The position numbers and the translations under genes were made by a program. Positions 4,166 through 63,991 of a DNA stretch of 64,000 nucleotides are shown piece by piece. Within the stretch, counting starts at the first letter, position 1. Each line of letters starts with the position of its first letter. The DNA comes from Kiritimatiellia bacterium (GTDB lineage Bacteria > Verrucomicrobiota > Kiritimatiellia > UBA8416 > JAWODU01): contig JAWODU010000119.1 of the NCBI GenBank assembly GCA_046483125.1, positions 1,584 through 65,583 of the forward strand, given 5' to 3'. The notes below the pieces were generated by a model. It was given only the letters and a program-made list of their open reading frames with translations. It was not told where the DNA came from and searched no databases.

Positions 4166-4729
4166 CTACACGGCCATGATTTCCTTTTCCCTGGCCTCCA
4201 GGGACCTGTCTATTTCCGCGGTATGCGCATCCGTACGTTTCTGGATGTCATCCAGCGCCTGCTTTCTGTCATCCTCGGTAATTTTACCGTCTTTCTGAAG
4301 GCTTTTAATTGTGTCGTTGGCCTCGCGTCTGACATTTCTGACGGCTACCCGCCCCTCTTCCGCTATCCTTTTGGCTACTTTTGTCATTTCCGTTCTGCGT
4401 TCTTCATTCAGCGGAGGAATGGGTACGCGAACGACTCTCCCGTCGTTCGCGGGTGTTACACCGAGGTTGGCGGCAAGAATCGCCTTTTCTATTTCAGGCA
4501 GTGCCGTGGGGTCATACGGACTAATAACAATCAGCCTGGGTTCCGGGGTCGCGATTCCGGCTATTTCTTTCAATCGCGTAGGATTGCCGTAATATGAAAC
4601 GGATATATTTTCAACAAGAGCGGGCGAAGCCTTACCCGTTCTGATGCCGGAAAACTGTTCGTGCATCAGACTCAAGCTCTTGGACATTTTCTGGTCTGCG
4701 TCTTTGATAACCTGATCCAGCGATTCCAT
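4166..4729 (-). CDS. frr: Ribosome recycling factor
   Basis: 187 aa with a full-length Frr match (ENISVSYYGNPTRLKEIAGIATPEPRLIVISPYD). Confidence 0.95.
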   Translation of the reverse strand: MESLDQVIKDADQKMSKSLSLMHEQFSGIRTGKASPALVENISVSYYGNPTRLKEIAGIATPEPRLIVISPYDPTALPEIEKAILAANLGVTPANDGRVVRVPIPPLNEERRTEMTKVAKRIAEEGRVAVRNVRREANDTIKSLQKDGKITEDDRKQALDDIQKRTDAHTAEIDRSLEAREKEIMAV

Positions 4730-4753: not shown

Positions 4754-4788
4754 TTCAGTATTCAGTGTTCAGTGTTCAGTGTTCAGCA
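4754..4788. repeat. Heptanucleotide tandem repeat TTCAGTG x5 (CACTGAA on the coding strand) in the frr 5' leader
   Basis: ttcagta ttcagtg ttcagtg ttcagtg ttcagca lies 25-60 nt upstream of the frr ATG. Confidence 0.8.
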
Positions 4789-21645: not shown

Positions 21646-21683
21646 AATGCTTCGCGTATCTTATTATCCCAGTCTGTATCCCC

Positions 21684-21758
21684 ATCTTAATCCCAATCTT
21701 AATCTTTATCTTAATCTCCCTGATATCAGATTATGATTAAGATTGTGATTAAGATTAC
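21684..21758. repeat. Palindromic repeat array: 3x ATCTTAATC, then ctGATATCag, then 2x GATTAAGAT (inverted)
   Basis: Seen directly. Lies between the thrS start and the stop of the vWA gene. Confidence 0.85.
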
Positions 21759-21765
21759 TAATCCT

Positions 21766-28581: not shown

Positions 28582-28702
28582 TCCGCCGGGGATTATTCAA
28601 ACAAAACCGGGCTGTGCCTGTCGAGCATAACGTACGAAAACCCCGCCTCCCCGGCCAGGCCGAAGGGCCAACCGCCTGTCCCGGCGTAGTCCCGTCCACC
28701 GT

Positions 28703-28772
28703 CCGTCATCTGCCATCCGTCATCTGCAATCCGTCATCTGTCGTCCGTCATCCGCCCTCCGTCCTCCGCCAT
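28703..28772. repeat. Family B tandem repeat, 14 bp period (CCGTCATCTG + 4 nt) x5
   Basis: Seen directly. Overlaps the last codons and stop of the 28734..30020 gene. Confidence 0.85.
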
Positions 28773-30020
28773 CTCCCCTCTGACCTTATCCTCCAGCTCT
28801 TCAAGCGCCTTTTCCGCTTCCGACAGCAGGTCCCTGAGAACGTCTTCTCTGCGCCCGTTTCGCACCGCCTGAAGGAAAGCACAGTACTTTTCCACCACGG
28901 CCGCGAACTCTTTGCCGCGGCCTACAGCCAGTAGTCGCAGTGTAATACTTTTGCTCTTCAGCGCCGAATCAATCCACTCCGCGTCACGCAACCCGGCTAA
29001 ATCGCCGAATGCGATAAATCTGCCGGGATCTTCAGCCAGCGGTACGCCGCCTTCTCCGGGACGCAAACGGAGTTCCGTCTTGAATTGCTCAATACCCAGC
29101 GGCGTAATGGAGCCGAGGCGGTAGACCATACGCCGCTGACTCAGTATCCACTCGTCCCATCCATCCTCCATTTCCAGGATTTTGTCGTACCGTCCGATGT
29201 AAGAAAGCGCAATACCGGCGGTTATCTCTTGTCTGTCTGCAATGCGCTCAATCATCCCGGTAAAAAACCCTCTCTTGTCCGGAAGAGATTTAAGCCAGCC
29301 GAAAAAGACGCCGCACACGGCTTCGCCGGCGTCGCTTCCCCCCGACGCAAGTATTTCCGCCGCCGTCGGCACCAGTCCCTCCCGCCACATCCGGTAAACA
29401 CGGTGCCCGTTTCGCGCTCTCAGGGCGGGATACAGGTCCTCGGCCAGGCCGTACCACAGCCAAAAGGGAATCCTGCTTCCCTGCGGTCCGCCCGGGCCCG
29501 CCTTCAAACCCTTCCGGAGCCTCATGCCGGCAATCTTCGCTTCAAGCAGTACCCTGCAAAGTGCGGCCTGGGCTTTTCTCCCGTCAACTTCGGGATAACC
29601 GTTGAGTATCAGCCTCTGGATGAACTTGCCGTTTTCGAAGGAAATCGTTCTCAGTATCCGTCCTTCCGGCATGCCCTCGGCACCTTTGCCTCCGCCGGTC
29701 TGCGTTTCCCGGGCCTGCGGCCCGCGAAGCACGATAAAGACATCACATTCCCCGCCCGTGGACAGATCCACGCCGAGTGCTTTTTCAGCTTTTGAAGCCG
29801 TTTCCTCGGCCCATGAGCCGATTTGCATATTGTACCGGGCGTTTGTGCTTGAAACCAGGAAGCGGCCGCCGGGACTCCTGGCGACCCGAAAAGAGCGGTA
29901 AAGACCGGCGGCAGTGCTTTCGGCGGCGTCGCTTCCAGCACCGACAGACGCCCCGATAAGGATAACAAGTACCGGGAAAAGAGCGCGGCACCGCATGCCG
30001 CCTTGCGCGGGGTGAATCAT
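28734..30020 (-). CDS. Hypothetical exported protein
   Basis: The start ATG at 30020 forms an ATGA overlap with the upstream gene's stop. Signal peptide MRCRALFPVLVILIGASVGAG. No family recognised. Confidence 0.5.
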   Translation of the reverse strand: MIHPAQGGMRCRALFPVLVILIGASVGAGSDAAESTAAGLYRSFRVARSPGGRFLVSSTNARYNMQIGSWAEETASKAEKALGVDLSTGGECDVFIVLRGPQARETQTGGGKGAEGMPEGRILRTISFENGKFIQRLILNGYPEVDGRKAQAALCRVLLEAKIAGMRLRKGLKAGPGGPQGSRIPFWLWYGLAEDLYPALRARNGHRVYRMWREGLVPTAAEILASGGSDAGEAVCGVFFGWLKSLPDKRGFFTGMIERIADRQEITAGIALSYIGRYDKILEMEDGWDEWILSQRRMVYRLGSITPLGIEQFKTELRLRPGEGGVPLAEDPGRFIAFGDLAGLRDAEWIDSALKSKSITLRLLAVGRGKEFAAVVEKYCAFLQAVRNGRREDVLRDLLSEAEKALEELEDKVRGEMAEDGGRMTDDR

Positions 30021-48880: not shown

Positions 48881-48890
48881 ACGGATCTTC

Positions 48891-48915
48891 GCCGATCGGG
48901 GGATCGGCTCCTACA
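48891..48915. repeat. REP-like palindrome GCCGATCGGGGGATCGGC + TCCTACA (Family C)
   Basis: Seen directly, in the convergent spacer after the PPIase gene. Other copies at 58080..58105 and (inverted) 61967..61992. Confidence 0.8.
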
Positions 48916-52206: not shown

Positions 52207-53580
52207 TCAGCCTCCTCGCACAAACCGGTCATTTTCCCATACCCCCTCAACCCGTCTCCCGTCGGAAAATATCCACACCCCGCGCCCGTGTTTTTTTCCG
52301 CTTCGGAATTCCCCCCTGTATTCCTCTCCCCCGGGATAAATGTAACGGCCTTTCTGCCCGTGTCTCCTGCCGTCCCTGAAGGGGCCTATGTATTTAGCCC
52401 CGTCGGCGTAGGTGTAGATACCCGGACCTTCCCGCACGCCGTTTACGAATTTTCCTTTATACACGTCGCCGTTCGTAAAACAGAACACTCCCTGTCCGTG
52501 TTTCACTCCGTTTTTGAAATCCCCTTCGTACTTACTGCCGTCCCTGTAAACCATCGTTCCCTTACCGCTCATTACGCCGTCCCTGAATTCACCCGTGTAT
52601 CTGTTCCCGTTGTGAAACGTCATTGTCCCTCTGCCGTGTTTCACGTCGTCCCTGAACCCGCCCACGTAGCGGTCCCCGTTATGATGAATGAACACGCCAT
52701 GCCCGTGTTTCATATCGTTCCTGAATTCGCCTTCGTAACGGTCCCCGTTCCTGTAATAGTAAACGCCGCGCCCGTGAAACAGACCGTCCTTGAACTGCCC
52801 CTCGTAGCGGTCCCCGTTCGGCAATTCGACTACCGATATTTCAGAAGGCGATATTTCTTCAGTTGTCACGTCCCCGCCGGTTTCAGGCGGCGGTTCCGGA
52901 ACGGATTCCGCGTAAGCGCCGGATGCCGCTTCAGGTTCATCCTTTATTGCGAAGGGAGCCGAGGTTTCCGTCGCAAATTCTTCCGTCCCCGCGCCGGTAA
53001 ACGTCTCTGTTTCTGCATGCTTCAGCAGATTCGAATACTGCGTTTTCAGCTCCCGGATCTGCTGTTTGCCCTGCAGTAATTCTTCTTCCGCCTTCTCAAG
53101 ACGGAGCCGGAGCCTCGTGACAGTCTCGTCGCCGCCGTTATCCGGTTCGACGCGCGAAGCAACCCATCGGCTGAACCTCTTCAGGTCGCGCTTCAGCACT
53201 ACACTTTCTCTTTCATGCTCGGTCACGGTATCATCAAGACTGGCTTTTAATTCCGCTTCCGTCTCCCGCAGGTTGTTCACTTCGCCGCCCAGGTCCACCA
53301 TGTCCGCGGCGTAGCGGGCGGTCTGGGCGCTTATTTCATTCACGCCTTCCATGGCTTTTCTGGATCTGCGCAGGACCGTGATGCCGACCGAGCTGAAGAC
53401 AACCAGCATGCCTGCCACGATAAGCAGAAACGTCGTTCCCAGCCACGCGACGATTCGCCTGGTCCGGTTGCGTTCCGTTTCAACGAAACGCTGAACCACG
53501 GCCATCGTCGCCACCGGGTCCAGCACCCGGGGCAGTGAATCGCCGCCGGGGCCGTGGACTTCGTACTGTTCCGTTTCCAT
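52207..53580 (-). CDS. MORN-repeat membrane protein (TM + coiled coil + about 8 MORN repeats)
   Basis: Repeats YEGQFKDGLFHGRG / YEGEFRNDMKHGHG / YVGGFRDDVKHGRG and so on. N-terminal TM WLGTTFLLIVAGMLVVF. Confidence 0.7.
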   Translation of the reverse strand: METEQYEVHGPGGDSLPRVLDPVATMAVVQRFVETERNRTRRIVAWLGTTFLLIVAGMLVVFSSVGITVLRRSRKAMEGVNEISAQTARYAADMVDLGGEVNNLRETEAELKASLDDTVTEHERESVVLKRDLKRFSRWVASRVEPDNGGDETVTRLRLRLEKAEEELLQGKQQIRELKTQYSNLLKHAETETFTGAGTEEFATETSAPFAIKDEPEAASGAYAESVPEPPPETGGDVTTEEISPSEISVVELPNGDRYEGQFKDGLFHGRGVYYYRNGDRYEGEFRNDMKHGHGVFIHHNGDRYVGGFRDDVKHGRGTMTFHNGNRYTGEFRDGVMSGKGTMVYRDGSKYEGDFKNGVKHGQGVFCFTNGDVYKGKFVNGVREGPGIYTYADGAKYIGPFRDGRRHGQKGRYIYPGGEEYRGEFRSGKKHGRGVWIFSDGRRVEGVWENDRFVRGG

Positions 53581-53686: not shown

Positions 53687-54256
53687 TTACTCGCCCGCTT
53701 TTTCCCCTTCCGGAACTCTGACCAGTTTTGTCACCAGCATGGAGCCCTTGCGGGACTCCGGACCTTCCCCGCCGGGAGACAGCGTAAGGTTCTGGACGGT
53801 AAGCAAACCGGGTCTTGTACGCACCGTGTAGAGAAACCTCAGCAGTTGATCCATCCCGGCGCCGAATCTGCCGATTTCCACCAGGCACTCTTCGCACCAT
53901 CCCATCTCCCGCGGTTCTCTGGGCAGAGTGGAATCAAGACGCAGACCGGTTTCCCTTGCCATCATATCGATTTCCATGTTCAGCCCGTCAATGGCTTCGG
54001 CGCTTGACGGCGCCTTTTCGATTCTATCGCTGATCCGGAGAAAACGCGCGTGTGCAACCCCCTTGCGGCTCAAAGCGCTTTTACGATAATCGAAAAGGTT
54101 CTCTTCCTTTTCAATATCCATGCTCAGTTCCCGGAATGTCCCGGTTATTGTCTGTATCACCAGCCGGTCCATGAAAACCCAGAAAACACAGGCTACAGCT
54201 ATGATCAGGCCGATTTTTTCCCGCTGTTTGAGTTTGTCGAGCTTGTCGAGGATCAT
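53687..54256 (-). CDS. gspM: Type II secretion system protein M-like (GspM/PilO-like)
   Basis: Single N-terminal TM, about 190 aa, lying directly downstream of the gspL-like gene. Confidence 0.5.
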   Translation of the reverse strand: MILDKLDKLKQREKIGLIIAVACVFWVFMDRLVIQTITGTFRELSMDIEKEENLFDYRKSALSRKGVAHARFLRISDRIEKAPSSAEAIDGLNMEIDMMARETGLRLDSTLPREPREMGWCEECLVEIGRFGAGMDQLLRFLYTVRTRPGLLTVQNLTLSPGGEGPESRKGSMLVTKLVRVPEGEKAGE

Positions 54257-55716
54257 TCTTCTTTCTCCAGTTCACACACAACCGTGAACTTGTACTTCCT
54301 GGTCCGCGAATCTCTGTTTATCCTGTCGGCTTTGACGTTTTCAAAAAGGGGTGAATTTTCCAGGTTCTGCACAAAACCGCTGATTTCCCCCCGCGAGTCC
54401 GAACTGCCTTCAAACCGCGCCCTCCCGCCTTCACGGGCGATGCCCATGTTCTGAAACATCACACCGCTCTTTTCCGGAACCGAATGATGGATTTCATTCA
54501 GCAGATTCACCATTGAGCGTTTCAGATCCGCTCGTTTTGCCCCTGTATTCGCTATCCGGGTCCACATTTCAATTTTCTTCACCTCCGGGGCAATGCGCTC
54601 GGACTCGGCTCTGACGGCATCCAGCCGGCTCTCCATCGTGCTGAACTTTGTCGTCGCGTAAAGTGATCCCGATACCATCACCGCCATTATCATCGCGGCC
54701 AGCGCGGTAAGGTTTCTCGCTTTCCCGGTAAGCTTTTTTCTCAACAGGACCGACTCGGGAACAAGATTCAATTCGAGGCCGTCCTGTGCCAGCGCCATCC
54801 CGGCCAGCGATACCAGCGATACCGCGCTTATTTTCTTCTCCATGCCCGCCGGAGGCCTGACTTTCCCGCCAAGGGCGTCGGTGCAATCACGCGTTTCCAC
54901 CGGCAGATCCGTTTCGGTGTTCAAAGCATTATGGAGATCTTTAACATGCGGTCCCGCGCCGGTGATAATTATTCGCTCCGGGGCGGGCGAGTCCGATTCC
55001 CCGCGGTAAGCTTCAAGCAGGCGCTTGGCCTCCCTGCAGTATTTCTGCGTTGCCGCCGCGTCTCCCCCGGCCAGTTCCTCCGCCCCGGTAAGTATGCTCT
55101 GCGTAAACAGAAGCTGATCGCCGGCGATAACGCAGAAATCAGTGTAATACGAGTCAATATCCAGCACCACCGAAGTCTTTCCGGATTTTCCTTCCGAAAA
55201 AGCGTGCCCGTACCAGTTCAGCAGTCCTTCAGTGCTCACCGACATGACCGCTTCTTCGACTCCCGCCGCTTCCAGAACGCTGAACCTCTGCCTCAGGATA
55301 CTGCGCTGGGCTATTGCCAGCATAATCCTGCTGTAACCTTCCCGTCCCGACGATCCGATTCTGTAATCGTAAACGATTTCGTCCTTCGAATACGGAGTCT
55401 GCCTGCCAACCTGCAGATCCAGCATATCTTCCAGTTCGGCCTGATCGGTCGAAGGCATTTCAAGCATCCTCACGTTCACCATCTGCCTTGGAATACATGC
55501 GGCTACCGGCGCCTTCGACGAACCCGCAGTCTTCATTGCCGCCGACAGCGCTTTCTGGAGTGATTGCGCCGAACCATCCACCTCGGCGATATAGAGACCC
55601 GAAAGCGCCGCGCCGCGCCGTGAAGGCCGCGCCAGCGCCGCCTTTACCCACCGCGAGCCCAGCTCAACTACAATAAAGGGCTTTCCCGACCGTGATTTGG
55701 ATTTCTTCTGCGCCAT
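54253..55716 (-). CDS. gspL: Type II secretion system protein L-like (PilM-like actin-fold cytoplasmic domain + TM + PilN-like periplasmic domain)
   Basis: Domain order and TM at LTALAAMIMAVMVSGSLY. ATGA overlap with the gspM-like gene. Confidence 0.6.
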   Translation of the reverse strand: MAQKKSKSRSGKPFIVVELGSRWVKAALARPSRRGAALSGLYIAEVDGSAQSLQKALSAAMKTAGSSKAPVAACIPRQMVNVRMLEMPSTDQAELEDMLDLQVGRQTPYSKDEIVYDYRIGSSGREGYSRIMLAIAQRSILRQRFSVLEAAGVEEAVMSVSTEGLLNWYGHAFSEGKSGKTSVVLDIDSYYTDFCVIAGDQLLFTQSILTGAEELAGGDAAATQKYCREAKRLLEAYRGESDSPAPERIIITGAGPHVKDLHNALNTETDLPVETRDCTDALGGKVRPPAGMEKKISAVSLVSLAGMALAQDGLELNLVPESVLLRKKLTGKARNLTALAAMIMAVMVSGSLYATTKFSTMESRLDAVRAESERIAPEVKKIEMWTRIANTGAKRADLKRSMVNLLNEIHHSVPEKSGVMFQNMGIAREGGRARFEGSSDSRGEISGFVQNLENSPLFENVKADRINRDSRTRKYKFTVVCELEKEE

Positions 55717-55747
55717 TAAGACCGACCTGCTCGTTCAAGGTTGTTTA

Positions 55748-55877
55748 CCTCATCCCTCATCCGTCATCTGTGGTTGCTCCCCTCTCCTCCCATCTTAATC
55801 CCCATCTTTATCTTAATCCTTATCTCCCCGTCTGAACTCCGTCGTCCGTCATCCGTCGTCCGCCCTCCGTCGTCCGA
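55748..55877. repeat. Composite intergenic repeat: B-like (CCTCATCCGTCATCTG), then A (CATCTTAATCCCCATCTTTATCTTAATCC), then B (CCGTCGTCCGTCATCCGTCGTCCG..)
   Basis: Seen directly, in the gspK/gspL spacer. Confidence 0.85.
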
Positions 55878-55881
55878 CAGA

Positions 55882-56919
55882 CTACCGTTCCCGCCAGTCC
55901 AGAACCGTATCATTTTCCCGGTCGAACACAAAGGCTATCCGGTAACCGGCCTGTATTTCCCCTGAACCCTTGCCTCCTGCCCGCTCTACCCACCCTGTGC
56001 TTGTGCCGCGAAAACACGAAGAACGGATCTCTGCGTCGGCCATCATGGCCGCCAAAACACCTCTCTCCTCCGGTTCAAGCGGCTCAAATCCGTGCAGAGC
56101 CGCCATAACCGACGGGATACTCGGTTCGGTAAACTGCCCCCCGGCTTCCCGGAAATCAACTATACGCTCAACTACTGCAAGCGCAACGTCCGTTTCCCCG
56201 CGGCAATGCGAAACCGCCAGACATTCGAGCGCCTCCCTGCCGGCAGTGTTGATATTGATCTTCCCCCTACCGTACAGCGTAACGTGCGGTCCGATCCTTG
56301 CCGCAACTTCTTCGTTTATGCCCTTAATCAACAGCAATTCTTCGATACAGCCGATCGCGCCGTCACGACACTCGTAAGGCGGTCTCAGGTTCTGATAATA
56401 TTCGTTTTCCGCCCCGCCGGTCAAGACGTCTTGATTCCTGTCGCGCCAGTCCATCACGGCAGACGCCGTTTCCCCGGCCGTCAAAGGGTCGAGATCGCCG
56501 ACGCGTACCAGAAGAGCTTCCAGCAGGGGCCGGCCCGCGCTATTCAGGTTAATGCGGCTCTCCTCGTCGGAAAGACCGAAGCTTTCCTCACCGCCGGATA
56601 CCACCGAAAAGCCGCCCGCCCCGATACTCACTGACCAAAGCCCGTCCTCGATGTCCGAATTCCAGGCTTCTCCCGGTCCGTCCCATGCGTTGGTGTCCGT
56701 CATCAGGATAAAAAACGCTTGTTCCGCCCCGGCCGCGGCCAGGCATCGCGCCTTCGCGGAGTACCTGTTCCTTTCAGCCAGCGCCAGGTTCGCCGAAACA
56801 TACGCCCCAACGGCCACTGCCAGGGCCGCCAGAAAAAAAAGCACCCAGACAGCCAGGATCACGACGCTCGAAGACCGCCTTCCTGCGTCCCGGAATCCTG
56901 TCACACCGGCATTCTTCAT
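55882..56919 (-). CDS. gspK: Type II secretion system protein K
   Basis: N-terminal TM plus GspK-type periplasmic domain. 345 aa. Confidence 0.65.
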   Translation of the reverse strand: MKNAGVTGFRDAGRRSSSVVILAVWVLFFLAALAVAVGAYVSANLALAERNRYSAKARCLAAAGAEQAFFILMTDTNAWDGPGEAWNSDIEDGLWSVSIGAGGFSVVSGGEESFGLSDEESRINLNSAGRPLLEALLVRVGDLDPLTAGETASAVMDWRDRNQDVLTGGAENEYYQNLRPPYECRDGAIGCIEELLLIKGINEEVAARIGPHVTLYGRGKININTAGREALECLAVSHCRGETDVALAVVERIVDFREAGGQFTEPSIPSVMAALHGFEPLEPEERGVLAAMMADAEIRSSCFRGTSTGWVERAGGKGSGEIQAGYRIAFVFDRENDTVLDWRER

Positions 56920-57551
56920 CGTTTCTGAGAATCCACTGCCCCCCGGGCCCGCAGAACAACAGTTCTGCTGAAAGTCTTTCTCCCCCCTTCGCCCGAAAAC
57001 GATACCTCTATTCTCACCGCCGACGGCGGATTGGTCGGATTATGCCACTCCTCATGCCATACAGCGCCATCCGGACCCTCGACAAGCCCGTCGCTTTTGT
57101 CTTCCCGGGGCGCTTCCAGATAAAGAAACTTCACGCTTTCAGCCCCGTCAAAAAGGTTTTCTTCCCCCCTGCCCGGCGGCGGCTCGGCGCCCGGGAAGGG
57201 CCATGTTTTACGCATCAGGGCGCCGCGCCTGAAATCAAAACTGTATCTGACCGTTCCCATTCGCCCGACGCCCTCCGCCTCGCTTCCGTCCAGCCGGACA
57301 GGGAGCGAAAATTCGCTCCGTTCACCTTTGAAAGCAACGCCGTAAAAGTCGGGAACACCGGCCAGGTCTTTTGCCGTTATGCCCAGCCCCGGAATCACCT
57401 TTGACTCAACGGCGTGATGTTCGACGGCTTTTTCCCAGACCTTTATGCCTCCCGATACCGACGCTCCAATTACGCCGATCACCACCCCCAATATCAGGAC
57501 CGCGACAAGAAGTTCGATAAGGGTAAAACCTTTGCGGCTTACGGACGTCAT
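56916..57551 (-). CDS. Type II secretion minor pseudopilin (GspJ/GspH-like)
   Basis: Canonical prepilin leader MTSVSRKG|FTLIELLVAVLILGVVIG. ATGA overlaps both neighbours. Confidence 0.7.
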   Translation of the reverse strand: MTSVSRKGFTLIELLVAVLILGVVIGVIGASVSGGIKVWEKAVEHHAVESKVIPGLGITAKDLAGVPDFYGVAFKGERSEFSLPVRLDGSEAEGVGRMGTVRYSFDFRRGALMRKTWPFPGAEPPPGRGEENLFDGAESVKFLYLEAPREDKSDGLVEGPDGAVWHEEWHNPTNPPSAVRIEVSFSGEGGRKTFSRTVVLRARGAVDSQKR

Positions 57552-58252
57552 TTTTTCTCTTTTGTTCCCAAGTAAGTGCACAACGCAACACTGCGGTCGG
57601 AGCCTTCCTTCCACACCGTTACCTTAACCAGGTTCAGCTTCCTTTCGGTTATGCCTTCCTTTTCGTCGATTCCGCGTTCCACGCTTCCGATCTCCTCTGT
57701 TTCCACCTGCCAGTAGAAAAGAGGCTCTTTCTTTTCGAATATACCTCCGGAGGCCGTGACACCCAACTCTCCGTACTTTGCCGCCGACAGTTCTAACTCG
57801 GACATTTTTTCGCGTGCCAGCTCAGTGCACTTCACGGTTTCGGCCGAAGCCCCCATGGCCGACAGGCATGTGTTCATGGCCTGAAGAACAGCGGTGATCC
57901 CGACGGAAAGTATTACCACCGCAACCAGAACTTCTATGAGAGTGAAGGAAGAGTGCGATGTGCGGTGTGCGGTGTGCGATGTGCGATGTGGGTTGTGCGT
58001 TGTGCGATGTGGGTTGTGCGATGTGGGTTGCGGGTTTTGCGATGCGGCTTGCGGGTTCCGGGTTGCGGGATGGGAGATTCGCCGATCAGGGGATCGGCTC
58101 CTACAGTGGGAGGTGCATCGGGTGCTCGCCCCGGCGTAGTACCGCGCAAGCGGGACGAAGCCGGGCCGGGTGTCGGCCGCATCCCGAACCTGCCCCGGCG
58201 CAGTTCCGCGCAAGCGGGACGAAGCCGGGTTACTCCTCATCCGGGCGCACAT
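57548..58252 (-). CDS. GspI-like pseudopilin with anomalous ~100 aa N-terminal extension; the 5' extent is uncertain
   Basis: The mature part FTLIEVLVAVVILSVGITAVLQAM.. is GspI-like. No ATG/GTG/TTG lies in-frame between the repeat tract and FTLIE. The -1 residue is Ser, not Gly. The extension is composed of repeat elements. Confidence 0.5.
   Translation of the reverse strand: MCARMRSNPASSRLRGTAPGQVRDAADTRPGFVPLARYYAGASTRCTSHCRSRSPDRRISHPATRNPQAASQNPQPTSHNPHRTTHNPHRTSHTAHRTSHSSFTLIEVLVAVVILSVGITAVLQAMNTCLSAMGASAETVKCTELAREKMSELELSAAKYGELGVTASGGIFEKKEPLFYWQVETEEIGSVERGIDEKEGITERKLNLVKVTVWKEGSDRSVALCTYLGTKEKK
57952..58070. repeat. 17-unit imperfect heptanucleotide tandem repeat (GTGCGAT / GTGCGGT / GTGGGTT ...)
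   Basis: Seen directly. On the minus strand it encodes 7-aa repeats NPHRT(S/T)H. The adjacent Family C palindrome (58080..58105) and a 2x direct repeat CCGCGCAAGCGGGACGAAGCCGGG (58141..58164, 58205..58228) complete the extension. Coordinates +/-1. Confidence 0.85.
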
Positions 58253-58646
58253 CGTCTTCAGTTCCCTCTTCGCCGTCCGGCCCCACGGACCAGATGTCGA
58301 ATTCCGTGATCCCGTGAGTTCCCGGGTACTGGTAACGGTATTTAAAACCCCAGGGATCCCGGGGTTTCTTCTCCAGGTAGGGTCCGTCCCAGTTCGGGGC
58401 TGACCCCGGATTGCTGATCAGAGCGTCCAGGCCCTGTTCGGTCGACGGATATTTGCCGACGTCAAGGCGGTAGAACTTGAGGCCGGTCGTGATATTGGCC
58501 ATTTCAGCGCGGGAGATTTTCGCTCTGGCTTTTTCGGCTCGCGGCAGAAGACGCGGCACAACCATTCCGGCGAGGGCCGCAATGATGATAACAACGATCA
58601 TCAATTCGATCAGTGTGAACGCGGAACTGCGGGTAGAGCTTTGCAT
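58230..58646 (-). CDS. gspG: Type II secretion major pseudopilin GspG
   Basis: MQSSTRSSA|FTLIELMIVVIIIAALAGMVVP...WDGPYLEKKPRDPWGFKYRY is a GspG signature, but with Ala at -1. Confidence 0.85.
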   Translation of the reverse strand: MQSSTRSSAFTLIELMIVVIIIAALAGMVVPRLLPRAEKARAKISRAEMANITTGLKFYRLDVGKYPSTEQGLDALISNPGSAPNWDGPYLEKKPRDPWGFKYRYQYPGTHGITEFDIWSVGPDGEEGTEDDVRPDEE

Positions 58647-58796
58647 ATGTCCTTCTCCTGCCTGAGACGGTACCTCCCAGCCTCCACGGCGTCAAGCGTT
58701 TACATGCGCCTTGCGTCCCCGCGTTACTCATCGCTGGCGGCGTACTGGAGGTTTTGTAGCGCCGCTTATCCGCGATGCAAGAAGAGCGGGGCAGGA

Positions 58797-58933
58797 GGGA
58801 CTAAGTGCAGGGACCAGGAGTCCATCCCCTCCCGTCTTAATCTTAATCCTAATCTTTATCTCCCCGAATCTTAATCCCAATCTTAATCTCTCCCTCCGTC
58901 ATCCGTCCTCCGTCATCCGTCATCCGTCCTCCG
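58797..58933. repeat. Composite G-A-B repeat element: GGGACTAAGTGCAGGGACCAGGAGTCC, then (ATCTTAATC)n, then (CCGTCATCCG)n
   Basis: Seen directly in the 304-nt gspF/gspG spacer. Same module order as 63554..63725. Confidence 0.85.
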
Positions 58934-58950
58934 TAATTGCTCTCCTCTTC

Positions 58951-60156
58951 CTACAATGCCTCGCTGAGTTCGAAGATGGGGAGAAGCATCGCCGCCACTA
59001 TAAAACCCACAATCGCCCCCACCACCAGAATCAGCGCCGGTTCCAGCAGGGTTACGGCAAGCCCGGTCTGATGTTCCACTTCCCTGTCGTAAAACAGGGC
59101 TATTTCGTTCATGCTTTCTTCAAGTCTGCCCGACTCCTCGCCGACCGCCGCCATACCGGCTACAAAAAGGGGAAACTCACGGGATTTCCTCAGACCGGAG
59201 GAAAGAGAGGCGCCCTTTGTTACGATATCCGACCGTATACGCAGGATTTCATCCCTTAGAACACTGTTATCCAGCGAACCACTGCTCAAGTCCAGGGCCT
59301 TGTCGATAGATACGCCTCCTTCAAGAAGCAGAGCCAGCGTCCTGGCAAACCGCGCCGTACCGGACCATTTCAGCATCCGTCCGATAAAAGGAATCCGAAG
59401 TTTGACGGAATCAAGAAAGATTCTGCCTCTTTCGACCGAAGCCAGCCGTTTGACTATCGCCCAAAGCAGAATAATTATCGCCGCCGGCCAGTACCACTTG
59501 TCGGTCAGGAACCCGCTTACGGCCATCAGAGCCCGGGTCGGCGCGGGGAGATCGGAATAGTCCTCGAAGAGGCCGGTAATCCGGGGCAGGAAAAAAATAA
59601 GCAGAATCAGAACCGTCGCTATTCCGACGGTCACAATCAATACAGGATATGCCGTGGCCGACTGAACCCTGCGCCGTGTTTCATCCTCCTTCTCGCGATT
59701 TTCCGCCAGCCGCGCAAGCGCGGTATCGAGCATTCCGCCCGCTTCACCCGAACGTATCATATCCACGTAAAGTTCCGGGAACACATCCGGATAGGCGGCC
59801 AATCCTTCCGAAAGCATATCCCCCCCCCGCACGATGCCTGTCAGATCTTCTATAAGCCGCCGAAGGCCGGTATTCGGGGTCTGTGCGGAAATAATGGACA
59901 ACGCGCGCAGAATCGGGACTCCCGATTTTATCATGGAAGCCAGTTGACGGGTAAAAACCGTAACGTCTCTGCGCCTTATGCGCCCGGTCCGCACCCGGCC
60001 GGATTCACGGAATTGACGGTCTTTTTCTTTTATCCAGACGGGGCTTAATCCCATGCGGTCCAGCGCCAGCGCGGCGCTCCGCCGCGATTCCGCGTCCAGC
60101 TCGCCTTCGACAGTTTCGCCGGGTCCCTTCTTGGCCCTGTATGAGTACGTCGGCAT
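58951..60156 (-). CDS. gspF: Type II secretion system inner-membrane platform protein F
   Basis: Two GspF repeats and three TM segments. 401 aa. Confidence 0.85.
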   Translation of the reverse strand: MPTYSYRAKKGPGETVEGELDAESRRSAALALDRMGLSPVWIKEKDRQFRESGRVRTGRIRRRDVTVFTRQLASMIKSGVPILRALSIISAQTPNTGLRRLIEDLTGIVRGGDMLSEGLAAYPDVFPELYVDMIRSGEAGGMLDTALARLAENREKEDETRRRVQSATAYPVLIVTVGIATVLILLIFFLPRITGLFEDYSDLPAPTRALMAVSGFLTDKWYWPAAIIILLWAIVKRLASVERGRIFLDSVKLRIPFIGRMLKWSGTARFARTLALLLEGGVSIDKALDLSSGSLDNSVLRDEILRIRSDIVTKGASLSSGLRKSREFPLFVAGMAAVGEESGRLEESMNEIALFYDREVEHQTGLAVTLLEPALILVVGAIVGFIVAAMLLPIFELSEAL

Positions 60157-60170
60157 ATGGTCAGCGCGTT

Positions 60171-60258
60171 ATCTTAATCTCCTCATCCTGATCGTAATCC
60201 CGATCTTAATCGTAATCTTAATCCCAATCTTAATCTCCCCGATATCGGATTGAGATTT
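60171..60258. repeat. Palindromic Family A array: (ATCTTAATC / CGTAATC)n, then CCCGATATCGG, then GATTGAGAT
   Basis: Seen directly in the gspE/gspF spacer. Same GATATC core as 21684..21758. Confidence 0.85.
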
Positions 60259-60262
60259 GGAA

Positions 60263-61897
60263 CTACTCCCCGCTCGTCACCCTCATAATCTCTTCGGCCG
60301 TCGTAATCCCCGCCTCGACTTTTTCCCGACCGTCGGCCCGCAGGGACTTCATCCCGAGCTCATCGGCTTTCTTTCTGATATCCGCCGCCGAGGATTTATT
60401 CAGTATCAATTCCCGTATTTCAGGCCGCACGGGAAGGAATTCGGAAATTGCCACTCTCCCGAGATAGCCGCTGTTCCGGCATTTTCTGCACCCTTTCGGA
60501 CGGTAAAGGGTCTTACCCTCAAAACGGTACGACTCCTTACAGCCGCACAAAACCCGCACAAGCCTCTGGGCGGTAAAAATCTTCACCGTCGAAGCGATCA
60601 GATAAGGTTCAACTCCCATATCCATCAGCCGTACCGCGCCGCCCGCCGCATCGTTGGTATGAAGGGTACTCAGCACAAGATGTCCCGTCATGGCGGTCTG
60701 CACCGCGATGCGCGCCGTCTCCGCGTCTCTTACCTCGCCTACCATCATAACGTCCGGATCATGCCTCAGCATGCTCCGCAGAGATCTTGCAAAAGACAGG
60801 CCTATTTTCGGGTTGACCTGCGTCTGGGTTATGCCGGCAAGTTCGTACTCAACAGGTTCTTCAATGGTTATTATCTTCCGCTCACGCGTGTTAAGCCTGC
60901 TGAGGCACGCGTAAAGAGTGGTGCTCTTGCCGCTTCCGGTCGGTCCGGTAACAAAAATTATTCCATGCGCTTCCGACAGCATTTCCTCAAGGAGTTTGCG
61001 GTGTTCGCCGGAAAAACCCAGTTGCTCCAGTTCGAATGTCATTGTTGCCGGCAGAATCCGCACCACGATGTCCTCTCCCCGCATGGCCGGCACCGCCGAT
61101 ACTCTCAGGTCATACCTTTTGTGTCCTATATTCACGCCGGCCCGGCCGTCCTGCGGCAGACGCCTTTCGACTATATTCAGCCCGGACATCAGTTTTATCC
61201 TGGATACTATCGCCGGATACAGCAGTCTGATATTCTCGGGAACTTTGGTCTCGTACAGCACACCGTCTATCCTGCGCCTCACCGCGAGACCCTGGGGTTC
61301 GACTTCAAAATGTATATCGGTGGCTCTGTCCTTTATAGCCTCAAGCATAAGCTGGTTCACCAGTTTTACCACCGAAGCGTCTTCGGCCATCTTTTCGAGG
61401 TCCTGTGAATCCTCGACCGCCGCGTCCTCTTCTTCCCTGTCGGTTTCGGAAAGTATTCTTTCCACGGTATCCGCACCCACGCCGTAATGCGCGCGCAGGG
61501 CTTCCTGGATATCATTCCGGCGGGCAAGAACGCGGTCCACCTTAACACCGAGATTGGTCTGAATATCCTGCGAAGGCGCGGTATCGAGGGGATCGGACAC
61601 GGCTATAACAAGCACGCCCCCGCGGAATTCCACCGGCATAATCCCGTAATGTGATACAAGTTTCGGAGAAAGGGCCTTTACCGCCTTTTCTTCTACGCTG
61701 ACATCGCGAAGGTCCACAAACTCCATGCCGTAAAGCTCGGCCTGGGTTCGCAATAGATCCTCTTCGGGAAGATATCCTTCTTCGGATAGCACGGAGGACA
61801 GCGGCTTGAAGGCCTTGCGGGCGGCGGCCTGTGCGCGTTCTAGGTCCCGCCGCGAAAGCAGGCCCTTATCTACAAGTTTCTGTCCAAGTTTATCCAT
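60263..61897 (-). CDS. gspE: Type II secretion ATPase GspE (PilB/GspE family)
   Basis: N1/N2 domains, Walker A GPTGSGKST, Asp box, His box and tetracysteine motif (CGCKES...CRKCRNSG). Confidence 0.9.
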   Translation of the reverse strand: MDKLGQKLVDKGLLSRRDLERAQAAARKAFKPLSSVLSEEGYLPEEDLLRTQAELYGMEFVDLRDVSVEEKAVKALSPKLVSHYGIMPVEFRGGVLVIAVSDPLDTAPSQDIQTNLGVKVDRVLARRNDIQEALRAHYGVGADTVERILSETDREEEDAAVEDSQDLEKMAEDASVVKLVNQLMLEAIKDRATDIHFEVEPQGLAVRRRIDGVLYETKVPENIRLLYPAIVSRIKLMSGLNIVERRLPQDGRAGVNIGHKRYDLRVSAVPAMRGEDIVVRILPATMTFELEQLGFSGEHRKLLEEMLSEAHGIIFVTGPTGSGKSTTLYACLSRLNTRERKIITIEEPVEYELAGITQTQVNPKIGLSFARSLRSMLRHDPDVMMVGEVRDAETARIAVQTAMTGHLVLSTLHTNDAAGGAVRLMDMGVEPYLIASTVKIFTAQRLVRVLCGCKESYRFEGKTLYRPKGCRKCRNSGYLGRVAISEFLPVRPEIRELILNKSSAADIRKKADELGMKSLRADGREKVEAGITTAEEIMRVTSGE

Positions 61898-61966
61898 TCA
61901 AGAAAACCGATATGTTACCAATCTGTTCTCCGGGATCCTGTATCCTATCCGTCATCCGTCGCCCGT

Positions 61967-62123
61967 CTGTAGGAGCCGATCCCCCGATCGCCGAAGGTCA
62001 TTCGCCCGTCCCGACCTTCGGCGAACAGGGCTTCGCCTCCTGCACGCCTCTCCGCCCGTCCCCTCTTCCAACAAGCAACTAAGGCCTAAGGACCAGGGAC
62101 TAAGAACCAAGGACCAAGAACAG
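61967..62123. repeat. Intergenic repeat cluster: inverted Family C palindrome, Family D element and Family G (AACTAAGGCCTAAGGACCAGGGACTAAGAACCAAGGACCAAG)
   Basis: Seen directly in the gspE/atpD-like spacer. Confidence 0.8.
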
Positions 62124-62127
62124 CCCC

Positions 62128-63724
<1,597 letters not shown>

Positions 63725-63725
<1 letters not shown>

Positions 63726-63991
63726 TACGCCGGGGCCTTTTTCCGGCGTCTCTTTTTTCGCGTGGCCCCGAAACTTTCGCGCATACCCTTGTCGATATTT
63801 TCCCTCGAAGCCTTCTGGGCCATATGTTTTATCTTTTTGTACTCTTTTTCCACCTTGTCGAAACTCCCTTCAAGATGCATGGCCCGCGCGGAGAATTCCG
63901 CCAGCTTGCTGTCCTCGAATACTTCAAAAAATTTCGATGTCAGCCAGACCCCGGCGAGATATTCGAGCATATCGGAAAAAGACGATTCCAC
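63725..63991 (-). CDS. Hypothetical small protein with Lys/Arg-rich C-terminus; may be spurious
   Basis: ORF only. The 3' end overlaps the Family B repeat. Confidence 0.25.

What the first reader, a model, noticed from the sequence alone, without database searches (positions are those of the whole stretch)
57548..58252. GspI-like pseudopilin whose ~100-aa N-terminal extension is built from repeat elements, including a 17-unit heptanucleotide tract
The mature region FTLIEVLVAVVILSVG.. is an ordinary GspI-like pseudopilin. In-frame upstream there is no ATG, GTG or TTG for about 100 codons. The open frame runs back through three elements: 17 imperfect 7-nt repeats (57952..58070) encoding NPHRT(S/T)H heptapeptides, a REP-like palindrome (58080..58105), and a 2x direct repeat CCGCGCAAGCGGGACGAAGCCGGG. 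It reaches an ATG that overlaps the gspG stop. Heptanucleotide tracts are not multiples of 3, so a copy-number change would shift the frame, a possible phase-variation switch on a surface pseudopilin. The alternative reading is that a His-rich repetitive leader is truly translated. The residue at -1 of the prepilin site is Ser here and Ala in gspG, instead of the near-invariant Gly, although the neighbouring gene at 56916..57551 has the canonical KG|FTLIE.
Basis: partly seen in the sequence, partly recalled or inferred. Interest (0 to 1): 0.68.

Follow-up and report, generated by a model that had tools for sequence, protein, structure and literature searches.

The report
Pseudopilin with giant repeat-built leader peptide
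A minor pseudopilin gene of a type II secretion operon in an uncultured Kiritimatiellia bacterium most likely starts inside the end of the preceding gene and is read through about 280 bases of repeat DNA, giving a roughly 100-residue leader that is cut off; this is about four times the usual maximum, and related metagenome contigs show smaller versions of the same thing.

Summary
Between the gspG stop (58230) and the FTLIE codons (F at 57949) lie two 51-nt hairpin repeats, a REP-like palindrome and a 17-unit imperfect 7-nt array. All are open in the pseudopilin frame. The only in-frame starts are ATG 58252, ATG 58240 and TTG 58213.

- ATG 58252 lies in the gspG "DDV" codons, where relatives L107 and L113 start their gspI-like gene.
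- 25 of 144 family representatives carry the peptide signature of that overlapping start.
- Called leaders in the family reach 61 aa.
- Residue -1 is Ala in 23% and Ser in 2% of the family.
- Two contigs of another lineage, L115 and L116, also carry 7-nt arrays between the last possible start codon and the cleavage site of gspI- and gspJ-like genes. In L115 both sites are SS|FTL, as here.

Phase variation is not supported directly: the array is degenerate, with at most 2.9 perfect copies. It is one of many 7-nt arrays in this genome's spacers. A start-less pseudogene remains a serious rival, because an open frame alone is expected about half the time at this base composition. My verdict is a new variant of a known kind, of moderate interest, resting on a MAG with no expression data.

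The parts
58230..58646 (-). gspG, the major pseudopilin (138 aa). Leader MQSSTRSSA|FTLIEL with Ala at -1; C-terminus ...TEDDVRPDEE*.
   Evidence: Pfam T2SSG 2.1e-34 and N_methyl; ORF list.
58238..58252 (-). Candidate start codons of the gspI-like gene, inside the last codons of gspG and in its +1 frame. ATG 58252-58250 lies in GAC G|ATG|TG (the DDV codons). ATG 58240-58238 lies in ATGAGGAGTAA.
   Evidence: In-frame codon list. Start at the homologous position in L107 (GAT G|ATG|TC) and one codon upstream, across the two Asp codons (GAT GAC), in L113. 25 of 144 family representatives begin with M..[IT]G[KNE], the +1 reading of the gspG tail DDxxNWE.
57950..58252 (-). Proposed leader-coding segment: 101 codons, MCARMRSN...HRTSHSS. 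It has 16 Arg, 3 Asp+Glu and 9 His, and contains no further ATG/GTG/TTG after codon 14.
58179..58229 (-). Copy 1 of the 51-nt direct repeat. It starts at the base after the gspG stop, and its first 36 nt fold into a -20.9 kcal/mol hairpin.
58115..58165 (-). Copy 2 of the 51-nt direct repeat (84% identical, 64 nt from copy 1, so it is read in a different frame). Same hairpin, -20.9 kcal/mol.
58076..58105 (-). REP-like palindrome TGTAGGAGCCGATCCCCTGATCGGCGAA (7-bp stem, -11.6 kcal/mol). It is a dispersed element, with non-coding copies at 48890-48911 and 61972-61993.
57952..58070 (-). A 17-unit degenerate heptanucleotide array, C[G/C]C[A/G]CA[A/T/C]. It is 50% C and 13% G and is predicted to be almost unstructured (z = +1.9 against shuffles). 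It ends 6 nt before the F(+1) codon.
57548..57949 (-). Mature GspI/PilV-like minor pseudopilin (FTLIEVLVAVVILSVGI..., 133 aa, plus stop). The preceding TCT TCC codons give SS at -2/-1.
   Evidence: Pfam N_methyl 6.9e-07. TIGR01707 gspI and TIGR02523 PilV match below cut-off. Family search gives 221 representatives at E<1e-10. The model has a long N-terminal helix plus a 4-stranded sheet.
56916..57551 (-). gspJ-like minor pseudopilin. Its ATG overlaps the gspI-like stop (ATGA). Leader MTSVSRKG|FTLIEL.

Best explanation
The 280-nt 'spacer' between gspG and the FTLIE codons is most likely the coding sequence of an abnormally long class III (prepilin) leader peptide.

**Proposed steps (all inferred, none shown)**
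1. Ribosomes finishing gspG start the gspI-like gene at ATG 58252 (or 58240), in the +1 frame inside the last gspG codons. Part of this pseudopilin family starts there.
2. Translation runs through two 51-nt hairpin repeats, a REP-like palindrome and the 17-unit heptamer array. The product is a basic, hydrophilic, probably disordered leader of about 101 aa.
3. The FTLIEV... helix inserts into the membrane with the leader on the cytoplasmic side. This follows the positive-inside rule, the established topology of prepilins.
4. The prepilin peptidase removes the leader after Ser(-1).

**Why repeats would collect here.** The leader is discarded, so its sequence is almost unconstrained. In this clade the minor pseudopilin genes are coupled directly to the preceding gene, so the leader-coding DNA is the only spacer-like DNA between them. 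The short tandem arrays and palindromes that colonise this genome's spacers therefore accumulate there, filtered only for reading frame and absence of stops.

**Shown:** the anatomy, the position of the start codons, the family statistics and the parallel cases in L115 and L116.
For: **Start codon position**
- No canonical start exists within 88 codons of the cleavage site.
- The mature part is intact and still coupled to gspJ by an ATGA overlap.
- ATG 58252 sits in the gspG DDV codons, where the gspI-like gene starts in L107 and L113.
- 25 of 144 family representatives start with the +1-frame signature of the gspG tail.
- In seven relatives with GspF 53-60% identical, gspI starts between -32 and +36 nt from the gspG stop, so there is essentially no non-coding DNA between the two genes.

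**The family tolerates long leaders and non-Gly at -1**
- Called leaders have a median of 17 aa, a 95th percentile of 46 and a maximum of 61.
- Residue -1 is G in 108, A in 33 and S in 3 of 144.
- The window's SS|FTLIEV junction (TCT TCC|TTC AC) recurs in L115 and L116 gspI.

**Independent parallels checked on DNA**
- L115 gspI: arrays (TTTCGCG)x4 and (CTCGACA)x4 lie downstream of the last possible start; leader at least 56 aa.
- L115 gspJ: GTG overlaps the gspI stop (GTGA). About 180 nt follow, carrying three short arrays (two of 7 nt, one of 6 nt), and then ERSS|FTLVEL. Leader at least 54 aa.
- L116 gspJ: a perfect (TTTCAGG)x4.4 array lies downstream of both ATGs; leader at least 32 aa.

**Probability under a non-coding model.** Being in phase with the coupled start and stop-free is expected at about 1/3 x 0.51 for the window and 1/3 x 0.18 for L115 gspJ, jointly about 0.01.

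**Comparison with other spacers.** Of the frames in 12 other spacers of the window, 34 of 36 contain stops. This spacer has two open frames and lacks the stop-rich GACGGAT and GATTAAGATT arrays found in the operon's other repeat-filled spacers.

**Assembly.** The longest exact repeat touching the region is 24 nt, so a repeat-induced misassembly is unlikely.

**Topology.** The leader has net charge about +13. Reviews state that prepilin leaders stay cytoplasmic and are cleaved on that side of the membrane (PMC4471445, PMC10191384).
Against: - There are no expression, proteomic or read-level data, and the sequence is a MAG consensus.
- The open frame alone is weak evidence: about 50% of shuffles are stop-free and 2 of 3 frames are open.
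- Ser at -1 is rare: 3 of 144 in the family and 0 of 70 in more distant GspI-like loci. Reviews state that the leader ends in Gly or Ala and that this residue is critical.
- A 101-aa leader is 1.7 times the longest called in the family and about 4 times the 6-26 aa range given in PMC4471445.
- Three stable hairpins (-20.9, -20.9 and -11.6 kcal/mol) would lie inside the ORF, which looks like non-coding architecture.
- The REP-like element is extragenic in its other two copies.
- The overlapping ATG is partly a by-product of the conserved gspG DDV codons, and only about 1 in 6 family members use it.
- Long leaders in the protein database depend on gene callers, and internal GTG/TTG starts cannot be seen in protein sequences. 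L116 gspI could start at a TTG, giving 18 aa.
- NCBI's pipeline called the gene from an internal Met instead.
Confidence: 0.55

Rival explanations
1. The region is a non-coding spacer and the gene has lost its start. Genome-typical repeat elements inserted or expanded between gspG and gspI and destroyed the original 14-30-aa leader, leaving a 5'-truncated, untranslated or non-functional gspI-like gene. The open frame is a coincidence of C-rich, T-poor composition.
For: - Stop-free probability is about 0.5, and two of three frames are open.
- Hairpins directly after a stop codon, a REP-like element and a tandem array are typical non-coding architecture, and are seen in the window's other repeat-filled spacers.
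- Ser rather than Gly or Ala sits at -1.
- NCBI annotated only a 109-aa internal ORF.
Against: - The mature part has no defects, and the ATGA coupling to gspJ is kept.
- The rest of the operon is intact.
- The insert is in phase with the family-typical start.
- The same architecture occurs in three genes of another lineage, where the arrays lie downstream of all possible starts.
- SS|FTLIEV also occurs at the junction of L115 and L116 gspI.
- GspI is needed for the I-J-K tip complex in studied systems (established knowledge), so its loss would disable an otherwise intact machine.
Confidence: 0.22
2. The leader is translated, and the 7-nt array also acts as a slipped-strand switch. Gain or loss of one unit moves FTLIE out of phase with the coupled start, turning the minor pseudopilin, and with it secretion, off or on in a subpopulation. 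This is a refinement of the best explanation.
For: - The unit length is not a multiple of 3, and the array lies between the start and the mature part.
- One of the three upstream frames is closed by two stops in the palindrome and has no start after them, so an OFF state exists.
- 7-nt arrays recur at the same position in gspI- and gspJ-like genes of another lineage. One is perfect, (TTTCAGG)x4.4.
- Copy number of the homologous TTTCAGG module differs between L115 gspI, L116 gspI and L116 gspJ.
- By analogy (own knowledge), the Neisseria opa genes carry CTCTT repeats in the signal-peptide coding region.
Against: - The window array is degenerate, with 76-82% self-identity at lags 7-21 and a longest perfect 7-nt tandem of 2.9 copies. 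Slippage should therefore be slow.
- Equally imperfect 7-nt arrays fill non-coding spacers, so a permissive-site model needs no selection for switching.
- A second frame also has an ATG (58182), so a shift is not a clean ON/OFF.
- The tip of a periplasmic pseudopilus is not an obvious target for antigenic or phage selection.
- No copy-number data could be obtained.
Confidence: 0.12
3. The repeats act at the RNA level, whether or not they are translated. The hairpins after gspG protect or attenuate the gspG message. The 119-nt C-rich, G-poor, unstructured array acts as a Rho-loading (rut-like) site or as a binding array for a protein such as S1, Csp or CsrA. Together these would set the high ratio of major to minor pseudopilins and make downstream transcription depend on translation through the leader.
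For: - Two -20.9 kcal/mol hairpins and one -11.6 kcal/mol hairpin begin at the base after the gspG stop.
- The array is 50% C and 13% G (C/G 3.7) and folds less well than 98% of its own shuffles.
- In the window's other repeat-filled spacers the arrays begin a few to about 50 nt after the upstream stop codon.
- Intergenic heptamer arrays in Beggiatoaceae and cyanobacteria were proposed as post-transcriptional regulator sites (PMC4679880). GGGNATC arrays in Xanthomonas lie within 50 bp of stop codons and are transcribed (PMC4692102).
Against: - There is no intrinsic terminator or promoter in the spacer and no Rfam family.
- The whole spacer does not fold better than shuffles (z = -1.4).
- Relatives manage without any spacer.
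- The presence of Rho or CsrA in this genome was not tested.
- This model does not say how gspI would be translated.
Confidence: 0.2
4. The frame fusion or the missing start comes from an assembly or consensus error in the MAG.
For: The source is a short-read MAG, tandem arrays are error-prone, and only one contig carries the locus.
Against: - The longest exact repeat touching the region is 24 nt, below usual assembly k-mers.
- The array reaches to within 6 nt of the F codon, so no collapsed copy could hide a start codon and a leader.
- Independent assemblies from other samples (L115, L116) show the same architecture.
Confidence: 0.05

Closest known systems
Class III signal peptides (prepilin leaders) of type IV pilins and T2SS pseudopilins, including the long leaders of type IVb pilins and Streptococcus sanguinis pilins
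   Same: A hydrophilic, positively charged N-terminal leader is followed by F-T-L-I-E and about 20 hydrophobic residues. The leader stays cytoplasmic and is removed by a dedicated aspartic peptidase (PMC4471445, PMC10191384). The Pfam N_methyl match is above its cut-off.
   Different: The leader would be about 101 aa against the 6-26 (to about 30) aa described. It ends in Ser rather than Gly or Ala. It is built from recognisable repeat DNA: two 51-nt repeats, a REP-like palindrome and a 7-nt array.
GspI / XcpV / EpsI (and PilV), the minor pseudopilin that nucleates the I-J-K tip complex
   Same: The gene sits between gspG and the gspJ- and gspK-like genes and encodes a small protein of about 130 aa. 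TIGR01707 gspI matches all five aligned clade members, and XpsI matches over residues 1-121.
   Different: All matches are below the curated cut-offs. There is no Pfam T2SSI hit, no PDB sequence hit and no informative fold match. It belongs to a separate Kiritimatiellia-centred family.
Simple-sequence-repeat contingency loci with repeats in the 5' coding region (for example Neisseria opa CTCTT repeats in the signal-peptide region and Haemophilus tetranucleotide repeats; own knowledge), and SSR phase variation in H. influenzae (PMC12721329, listed; I did not read it)
   Same: A tandem array whose unit is not a multiple of 3 lies between the start codon and the mature part of an exported protein.
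   Different: The array is degenerate (at most 2.9 perfect copies), the organism is environmental, and no copy-number variation has been shown. Similar arrays in the same genome are non-coding.
Abundant heptamer direct repeats of bacterial genomes: TAACTGA in Beggiatoaceae, cyanobacteria and Bacteroidetes (PMC4679880); GGGNATC in Xanthomonas and Nostoc (PMC4692102); cyanobacterial STRR (own knowledge)
   Same: Many 7-nt arrays per genome, mostly intergenic and close to starts or stops. When they fall inside ORFs they sit at the periphery of the protein. This window has 11 period-7 rows against 1.4 expected.
   Different: The unit sequences differ (CGCACAT, GACGGAT, CTGAACA, GGTCCTT). The phylum is Kiritimatiellia. 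Here the array lies in a cleaved leader peptide, a position not described in those papers.
REP (repetitive extragenic palindromic) elements
   Same: A short imperfect palindrome occurs 3 times in 64 kb with a conserved TGTAGGAGC...CGAA frame, and it forms a hairpin. It resembles Pseudomonas REP sequences in outline (own knowledge).
   Different: One copy would lie inside a translated region. Association with a RAYT transposase was not tested.

Membership tests
Class III signal peptide / prepilin (type IV pilin-like) | N-terminal methylation/cleavage motif with F(+1), E(+5) and about 20 hydrophobic residues | tested here: met
   FTLIEVLVAVVILSVGITAVL; Pfam PF07963 scores 29 bits against a cut-off of 21.2; TIGR02532 scores 20.4 against 16.3.
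Class III signal peptide / prepilin (type IV pilin-like) | Leader ends in Gly (or Ala) at -1 | tested here: not met
   Ser at -1. In the family, -1 is G 108, A 33 and S 3 of 144. Reviews give Gly or Ala.
Class III signal peptide / prepilin (type IV pilin-like) | Short hydrophilic leader (6-26, up to about 30 aa) with a start codon close to the cleavage site | tested here: not met
   The nearest in-frame starts give leaders of 88, 97 and 101 aa. In 70 distant loci the nearest start gives a leader of 3-21 aa in 67.
Class III signal peptide / prepilin (type IV pilin-like) | Cleavage by a cognate prepilin peptidase | not testable with these tools
   No A24 peptidase was found among the ten window ORFs scanned. 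The rest of the genome is not available.
GspI (T2SS minor pseudopilin I) | Match to the curated GspI models | tested here: not met
   TIGR01707 scores 25.1 bits against a cut-off of 44.35. PF02501 is not reported at E<0.01.
GspI (T2SS minor pseudopilin I) | Gene order gspG - gspI - gspJ - gspK within a T2SS operon | tested here: met
   The E, F, G, x, J, K and PilM/N genes were identified by Pfam. The same order is seen in L108, L111, L113 and L116.
GspI (T2SS minor pseudopilin I) | GspI fold: a long N-terminal helix packed on a small beta-sheet | tested here: inconclusive
   The model (pLDDT 75.5) has helix 5-60 plus four strands. Foldseek against the PDB gave no match at E<=0.001.
SSR contingency (phase-variation) locus | Tandem array whose unit is not divisible by 3, inside the 5' coding region or promoter | tested here: met
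   A 7-nt unit, 17 copies, between the only start codons and the mature part.
SSR contingency (phase-variation) locus | Long run of perfect repeats that permits frequent slippage | tested here: not met
   The longest perfect 7-nt tandem is 20 nt (2.9 copies), and for a 14-nt unit it is 2.3 copies.
SSR contingency (phase-variation) locus | Copy-number polymorphism within or between populations | not testable with these tools
   No reads were available. The exact-protein look-ups and both collection scans found no second assembly of the locus.
REP elements | Short imperfect palindrome dispersed in many copies | tested here: met
   3 copies in 64 kb against 0.01 expected; hairpin of -11.6 kcal/mol.
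REP elements | Extragenic location | tested here: inconclusive
   The copies at 48890 and 61972 are intergenic. The copy at 58080 lies inside the proposed leader ORF.
Genome-wide bacterial heptamer arrays (STRR / TAACTGA / GGGNATC type) | Many 7-nt direct-repeat arrays per genome, mostly in spacers close to gene ends | tested here: met
   11 period-7 rows against 1.4 in shuffles. The arrays lie in spacers and begin a few to about 50 nt after stop codons.

The most novel reading that the evidence does not exclude
In a group of Kiritimatiellia, heptanucleotide arrays are maintained by selection, not just tolerated, inside the leader-coding segments of translationally coupled minor pseudopilin genes (gspI, gspJ). 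There they would act as frame-dependent stochastic switches and/or as ribosome-shielded Rho-loading sites, tying expression of the whole downstream T2SS assembly module to translation of the major pseudopilin. This would be a contingency or polarity device built into a cleaved prepilin leader in free-living bacteria.
Probability: 0.13. Interest if true: 0.75.

Novelty: new variant of a known kind. Interest (0 to 1): 0.55.

Why it matters
If the reading is right, three things follow.
[quoted passage not shown] It would imply that prepilin peptidases of this clade accept G, A or S at -1 and are indifferent to leader length. This bears on pilin-finding software and on genome annotation. NCBI, for example, calls this gene from an internal Met and loses the transmembrane helix.
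- **Repeat DNA becoming coding sequence.** It would be a clear natural case of 'junk' repeat DNA (a REP-like palindrome, hairpin repeats and a 7-nt array) being absorbed into coding sequence at a site where the product is thrown away.
- **A heptamer-rich lineage.** It points to a Kiritimatiellia lineage whose spacers are unusually rich in heptamer arrays, a class of bacterial repeat whose function is still open. That gives a concrete, testable locus for asking whether such arrays switch or tune gene expression.

If the pseudogene reading is right instead, the finding is an ordinary gene inactivation in a MAG.

Tried and rejected
**Searches for other copies of the locus**
- Genome-contig scan with the GspJ-like protein. 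It was saturated by the generic RKGFTLIE pattern and returned only distant pseudopilins. The window's own genome was not recovered.
- Metagenome-contig scan with the GspI alignment. It returned only distant relatives, at most 49% identical over the N-terminus. I used them as a baseline for leader length and the -1 residue.
- Exact-protein look-ups of gspG and of the NCBI 109-aa product. Neither is on record, so no second assembly was available to compare copy number.

**Searches for known elements and structures**
- Rfam scan of 55600-63900: nothing relevant.
- Promoter and terminator scan: nothing in the spacer.
- PDB sequence search with the clade profile and Foldseek of the model: no pseudopilin recovered, so fold membership is left open.

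**Tests for a coding signature**
- Higher-order 21-nt periodicity as a sign of frame-preserving duplication: lag 21 is only slightly better than lag 7 or 14 (0.82 against 0.76-0.77). A clearly non-coding array shows the same pattern, so the test does not discriminate.
- Stop-free frame as evidence of coding: rejected as a stand-alone argument, with P about 0.5.
- Near-cognate starts (CTG, ATT, ATC, ATA, ACG) close to the cleavage site: none in frame within 17 codons (the nearest is ACG at 58000).
- The match between 'PHRS' in the L111 leader and the window's NPHRTSH heptapeptide: considered and dropped as a likely chance match. This is my own rough estimate, not a tool result.

**Literature**
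- I searched for Ser at -1 and for very long leaders. This yielded only the canonical statements (Gly or Ala; 6-26 aa, 'variable').
Full report
**Context**

The window comes from an uncultured Kiritimatiellia bacterium. The 109-aa product that NCBI annotates in this gene and the GspF protein both match NCBI MAG proteins at 100% identity, on a 77,010-nt contig.

The finding lies in a type II secretion or type IV filament-like operon on the minus strand:

| Gene | Coordinates |
|---|---|
| gspE | 60263-61897 |
| gspF | 58951-60156 |
| gspG | 58230-58646 |
| the gene in question | ORF 57548-58252 |
| gspJ-like | 56916-57551 |
| gspK-like | 55882-56919 |
| pilM/N fusion | 54253-55716 |

These assignments rest on Pfam. 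Only three ORFs in the 64 kb carry an FTLIE-type N-terminus.

**Checking the observation**

All the described elements exist.
- The 7-nt array (57952-58070) has TRF scores of 97-108, against a maximum of 58 in 20 shuffled windows.
- In register it has 17 units with consensus C[G/C]C[A/G]CA[A/T/C].
- The palindrome at 58080-58101 is a dispersed element with two more copies in the window: 3 hits against 0.01 expected.
- The 24-nt exact repeat is the core of a 51-nt repeat present twice.
- Each 51-nt copy folds into a -20.9 kcal/mol hairpin and the palindrome into a -11.6 kcal/mol hairpin. The 119-nt array is less structured than 98% of its own shuffles.
- In the pseudopilin frame the only start codons are ATG 58252, ATG 58240 and TTG 58213. 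Then 88 codons follow without one, up to ...SHSS|FTLIE.

Two qualifications apply. The open frame is not in itself unusual, because the sense strand is 44% C and 12% T, two of the three frames are open, and about half of dinucleotide shuffles are stop-free. The array is also not special to this gene. The window has 11 period-7 TRF rows against 1.4 in shuffles. Several other spacers in the window, four of them inside this operon, are filled with other arrays: (GACGGAK)n, (GATTAAGATTGG)n and (GGTCCTT)n.

**What relatives show**

No close relative exists in the collections I could search. The best GspF match is 60% identical, and the best GspI-like matches are 34-41%. Seven contigs from the clade were examined on DNA.

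| Locus | gspI start relative to gspG stop | Leader |
|---|---|---|
| L107 | ORFs overlap by 26 nt | 20 aa |
| L113 | ORFs overlap by 32 nt | 30 aa |
| L114 | 25 nt downstream | 29 aa |
| L108 | 27 nt downstream | 16 aa |
| L111 | 28 nt downstream | 23 aa |
| L116 | 36 nt downstream | up to 46 aa |
| L001 | gspG stop about 80-115 nt upstream of the candidate ATGs | 2 aa as called, or 14 aa from an upstream in-frame ATG |

In all but L001 there is therefore essentially no non-coding DNA between gspG and gspI. Whatever lies between the gspG stop and FTLIE is leader.

In L107 and L113 the start ATG is formed by the conserved gspG C-terminal Asp-Asp-Val/Ile codons (GAT G|ATG|TC and ACT G|ATG|AC). 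Window ATG 58252 is at the homologous position (GAC G|ATG|TG).

A profile search of 1.84 billion representatives found 221 family members at E<1e-10. Of the 144 among the 150 best hits that had a recognisable motif:
- 25 begin with M..[IT]G[KNE], the +1-frame translation of the gspG tail DDxxNWE.
- Called leaders have a median of 17 aa, a 95th percentile of 46 and a maximum of 61.
- Residue -1 is Gly in 108, Ala in 33 and Ser in 3.

By contrast, in 70 distant GspI-like loci from metagenomes the nearest start gives a leader of 3-21 aa in 67, and -1 is Gly in 69. This clade is therefore unusually relaxed in both leader length and the -1 residue.

**Parallel cases**

Two of the three Ser(-1) representatives were traced to DNA.

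L115 is a 1.2-kb JGI contig.
- Its gspI-like gene has two 7-nt arrays, (TTTCGCG)x4 and (CTCGACA)x4. Both lie downstream of the last possible start codon, so the leader is at least 56 aa.
- It has the junction CTC TCT TCC|TTC ACG, close to the window's CAC TCT TCC|TTC ACT.
- Its gspJ-like gene starts at a GTG overlapping the gspI stop (GTGA). About 180 nt follow, carrying (GTGTCGA)x3, (CGTACT)x3 and (CCCTCGA)x4, and the leader ends ERSS|FTLVEL, at least 54 aa long.

L116 is a 7.3-kb ENA contig whose GspF is 53% identical to the window's.
- Its gspJ-like gene has a perfect (TTTCAGG)x4.4 array downstream of both available ATGs, so the leader is at least 32 aa.
- Its gspI has the junction ...ALSSS|FTLIEV.
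- A module of about 190 nt (spacer, ATG, leader with array and palindrome) is duplicated upstream of its gspI and gspJ.

The same genomes also share array families with the window: (CTGAACA)n occurs at window 4754-4786 and at L116 4332-4380. The window gene is thus the extreme member of a recurring pattern: a coupled start, then a repeat-rich in-frame insert, then a small residue at -1, then FTLxE.

**Weighing the explanations**

Under a non-coding model, being in phase with the coupled start and stop-free has probability of about 0.17 for the window and 0.06 for L115 gspJ. Under the translated-leader model it is required.

Further points favour translation:
- The mature part is intact, and the ATGA coupling to gspJ is retained.
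- This spacer lacks the stop-rich array families found in the operon's other repeat-filled spacers.
- The Ser-Ser codons directly before F also occur in L115 and L116 gspI.
- The leader is strongly basic: 16 Arg against 3 acidic residues. That fits the cytoplasmic location that prepilin leaders keep until cleavage (PMC4471445, PMC10191384).
- A repeat-induced misassembly is unlikely, because the longest exact repeat touching the region is 24 nt.

Against it:
- Ser at -1 is rare and outside the stated Gly/Ala rule.
- The length is without precedent.
- Three stable hairpins would be translated.
- There are no expression data.

I put the translated giant leader at about 0.55 and a start-less non-functional gene at about 0.22. 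The phase-variation refinement is at about 0.12, because the array is degenerate, with at most 2.9 perfect copies. An assembly artefact is at about 0.05. RNA-level roles are compatible with any of these and remain speculative: hairpins stabilising or attenuating the gspG message, and the C-rich unstructured array (C/G = 3.7) acting as a rut-like or protein-binding site.

**Comparison with what is known**

[quoted passage not shown] It passes the motif test but fails the two textbook features of a short leader and Gly/Ala at -1.

It is GspI-like by gene order and by sub-threshold matches only. The fold search was uninformative.

The array resembles SSR contingency loci in position and unit length but not in repeat perfection.

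Abundant bacterial heptamer arrays are a known, poorly understood class. Examples are TAACTGA in Beggiatoaceae, cyanobacteria and Bacteroidetes, mostly just upstream of start codons and occasionally at the periphery of ORFs (PMC4679880), and GGGNATC in Xanthomonas and Nostoc near stop codons (PMC4692102). Their presence inside a cleaved prepilin leader, and in Kiritimatiellia, was not described in the papers I could find.

**Verdict**

The phase-variation idea is untested and weakened by the array's degeneracy. The claim of near-invariant Gly at -1 is not valid for this clade. This is a new variant of a known kind, of moderate interest (0.55), limited mainly by the lack of read-level and expression data.

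Noticed in passing
window 21646-21765, 28582-28800, 55717-55881, 58647-58950, 60157-60262, 63568-63740; also 62077-62121: Several spacers in the window, four of them inside this operon, are filled with composite tandem arrays on the sense (minus) strand: (GACGGAK)n heptamers followed by (GATTAAGATTGG)n hexamer/dodecamer arrays. (GGTCCTT)n lies after atpD. The arrays begin a few to about 50 nt after the upstream stop codon. Relatives have compact spacers of -32 to about 50 nt. The window has 11 period-7 TRF rows against 1.4 in shuffles.
   Followed up: partly
window 21666-21757 and 60191-60262: Here the hexamer arrays occur as inverted blocks, (AATCTTAATC)n ... (GATTAAGATT)n, around GATATC or TGATATCA. 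They could form long hairpins.
   Followed up: no
window 4754-4786; L116 4332-4380: The same heptamer, CTGAACA, forms an array of 4.7 copies 25 nt upstream of ORF 4166-4729 in the window. It forms 7 perfect copies 20 nt upstream of pilM in L116, whose GspF is 53% identical. The array family is therefore shared across lineages and sits just upstream of start codons.
   Followed up: no
window 48890-48911 and 61972-61993: Two further copies of the REP-like palindrome TGTAGGAGCCGATCCCCYGATCGSCGAA, both intergenic. One lies between convergent genes and the other between atpD and gspE.
   Followed up: partly
window 58619-58621 (gspG -1 codon); L107, L108, L114: Ala rather than Gly at -1 of the major pseudopilin GspG in 4 of 7 clade members. 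It also occurs in L108 GspJ and in 23% of the GspI-like family. Ala at -1 is accepted in the recent literature, but it is unusually frequent here.
   Followed up: partly
L116 1808-1999 and 2354-2550: A module of about 190 nt is duplicated upstream of both gspI and gspJ. It comprises the spacer, ATG codons and a leader with a TTTCAGG array, the palindrome CCACGCCAACGGTGTGG and a CCCTCAGCCCTCTCTTC tail. The leader peptides of the two genes are therefore homologous (QRMNSKR...GFHPS and QRMNRKR...GFSPQ). L115 gspI shares the 3' half.
   Followed up: partly
window 57548-57877 (NCBI product P0001): The public annotation calls this gene from the internal Met (MNTCLSAMG..., 109 aa, 'hypothetical protein'). 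This drops the FTLIE transmembrane helix, so it is a likely start-site misannotation. JGI made the same kind of call for L115 gspJ.
   Followed up: yes
window 62128-63567 (atpD) to 52207-53580 (MORN-repeat gene); L109, L110, L113, L114: The T2SS-like operon directly follows the F1Fo ATP synthase genes. In the window and L113 it is followed by a MORN-repeat protein gene. The ATP synthase-T2SS linkage is conserved across the clade.
   Followed up: no
L115 1197-1232: A 9-nt array, (ATCCGACGG)x4, lies in frame inside the gspJ-like coding region and encodes SDGSDGSD. Tandem arrays whose unit is a multiple of 3 are tolerated inside the mature part.
   Followed up: no
window 52634-52819: A 69-nt tandem repeat (2.7 copies, 75% identical) lies inside the gene whose product has 7 MORN repeats. 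This is ordinary coding repeat structure.
   Followed up: no
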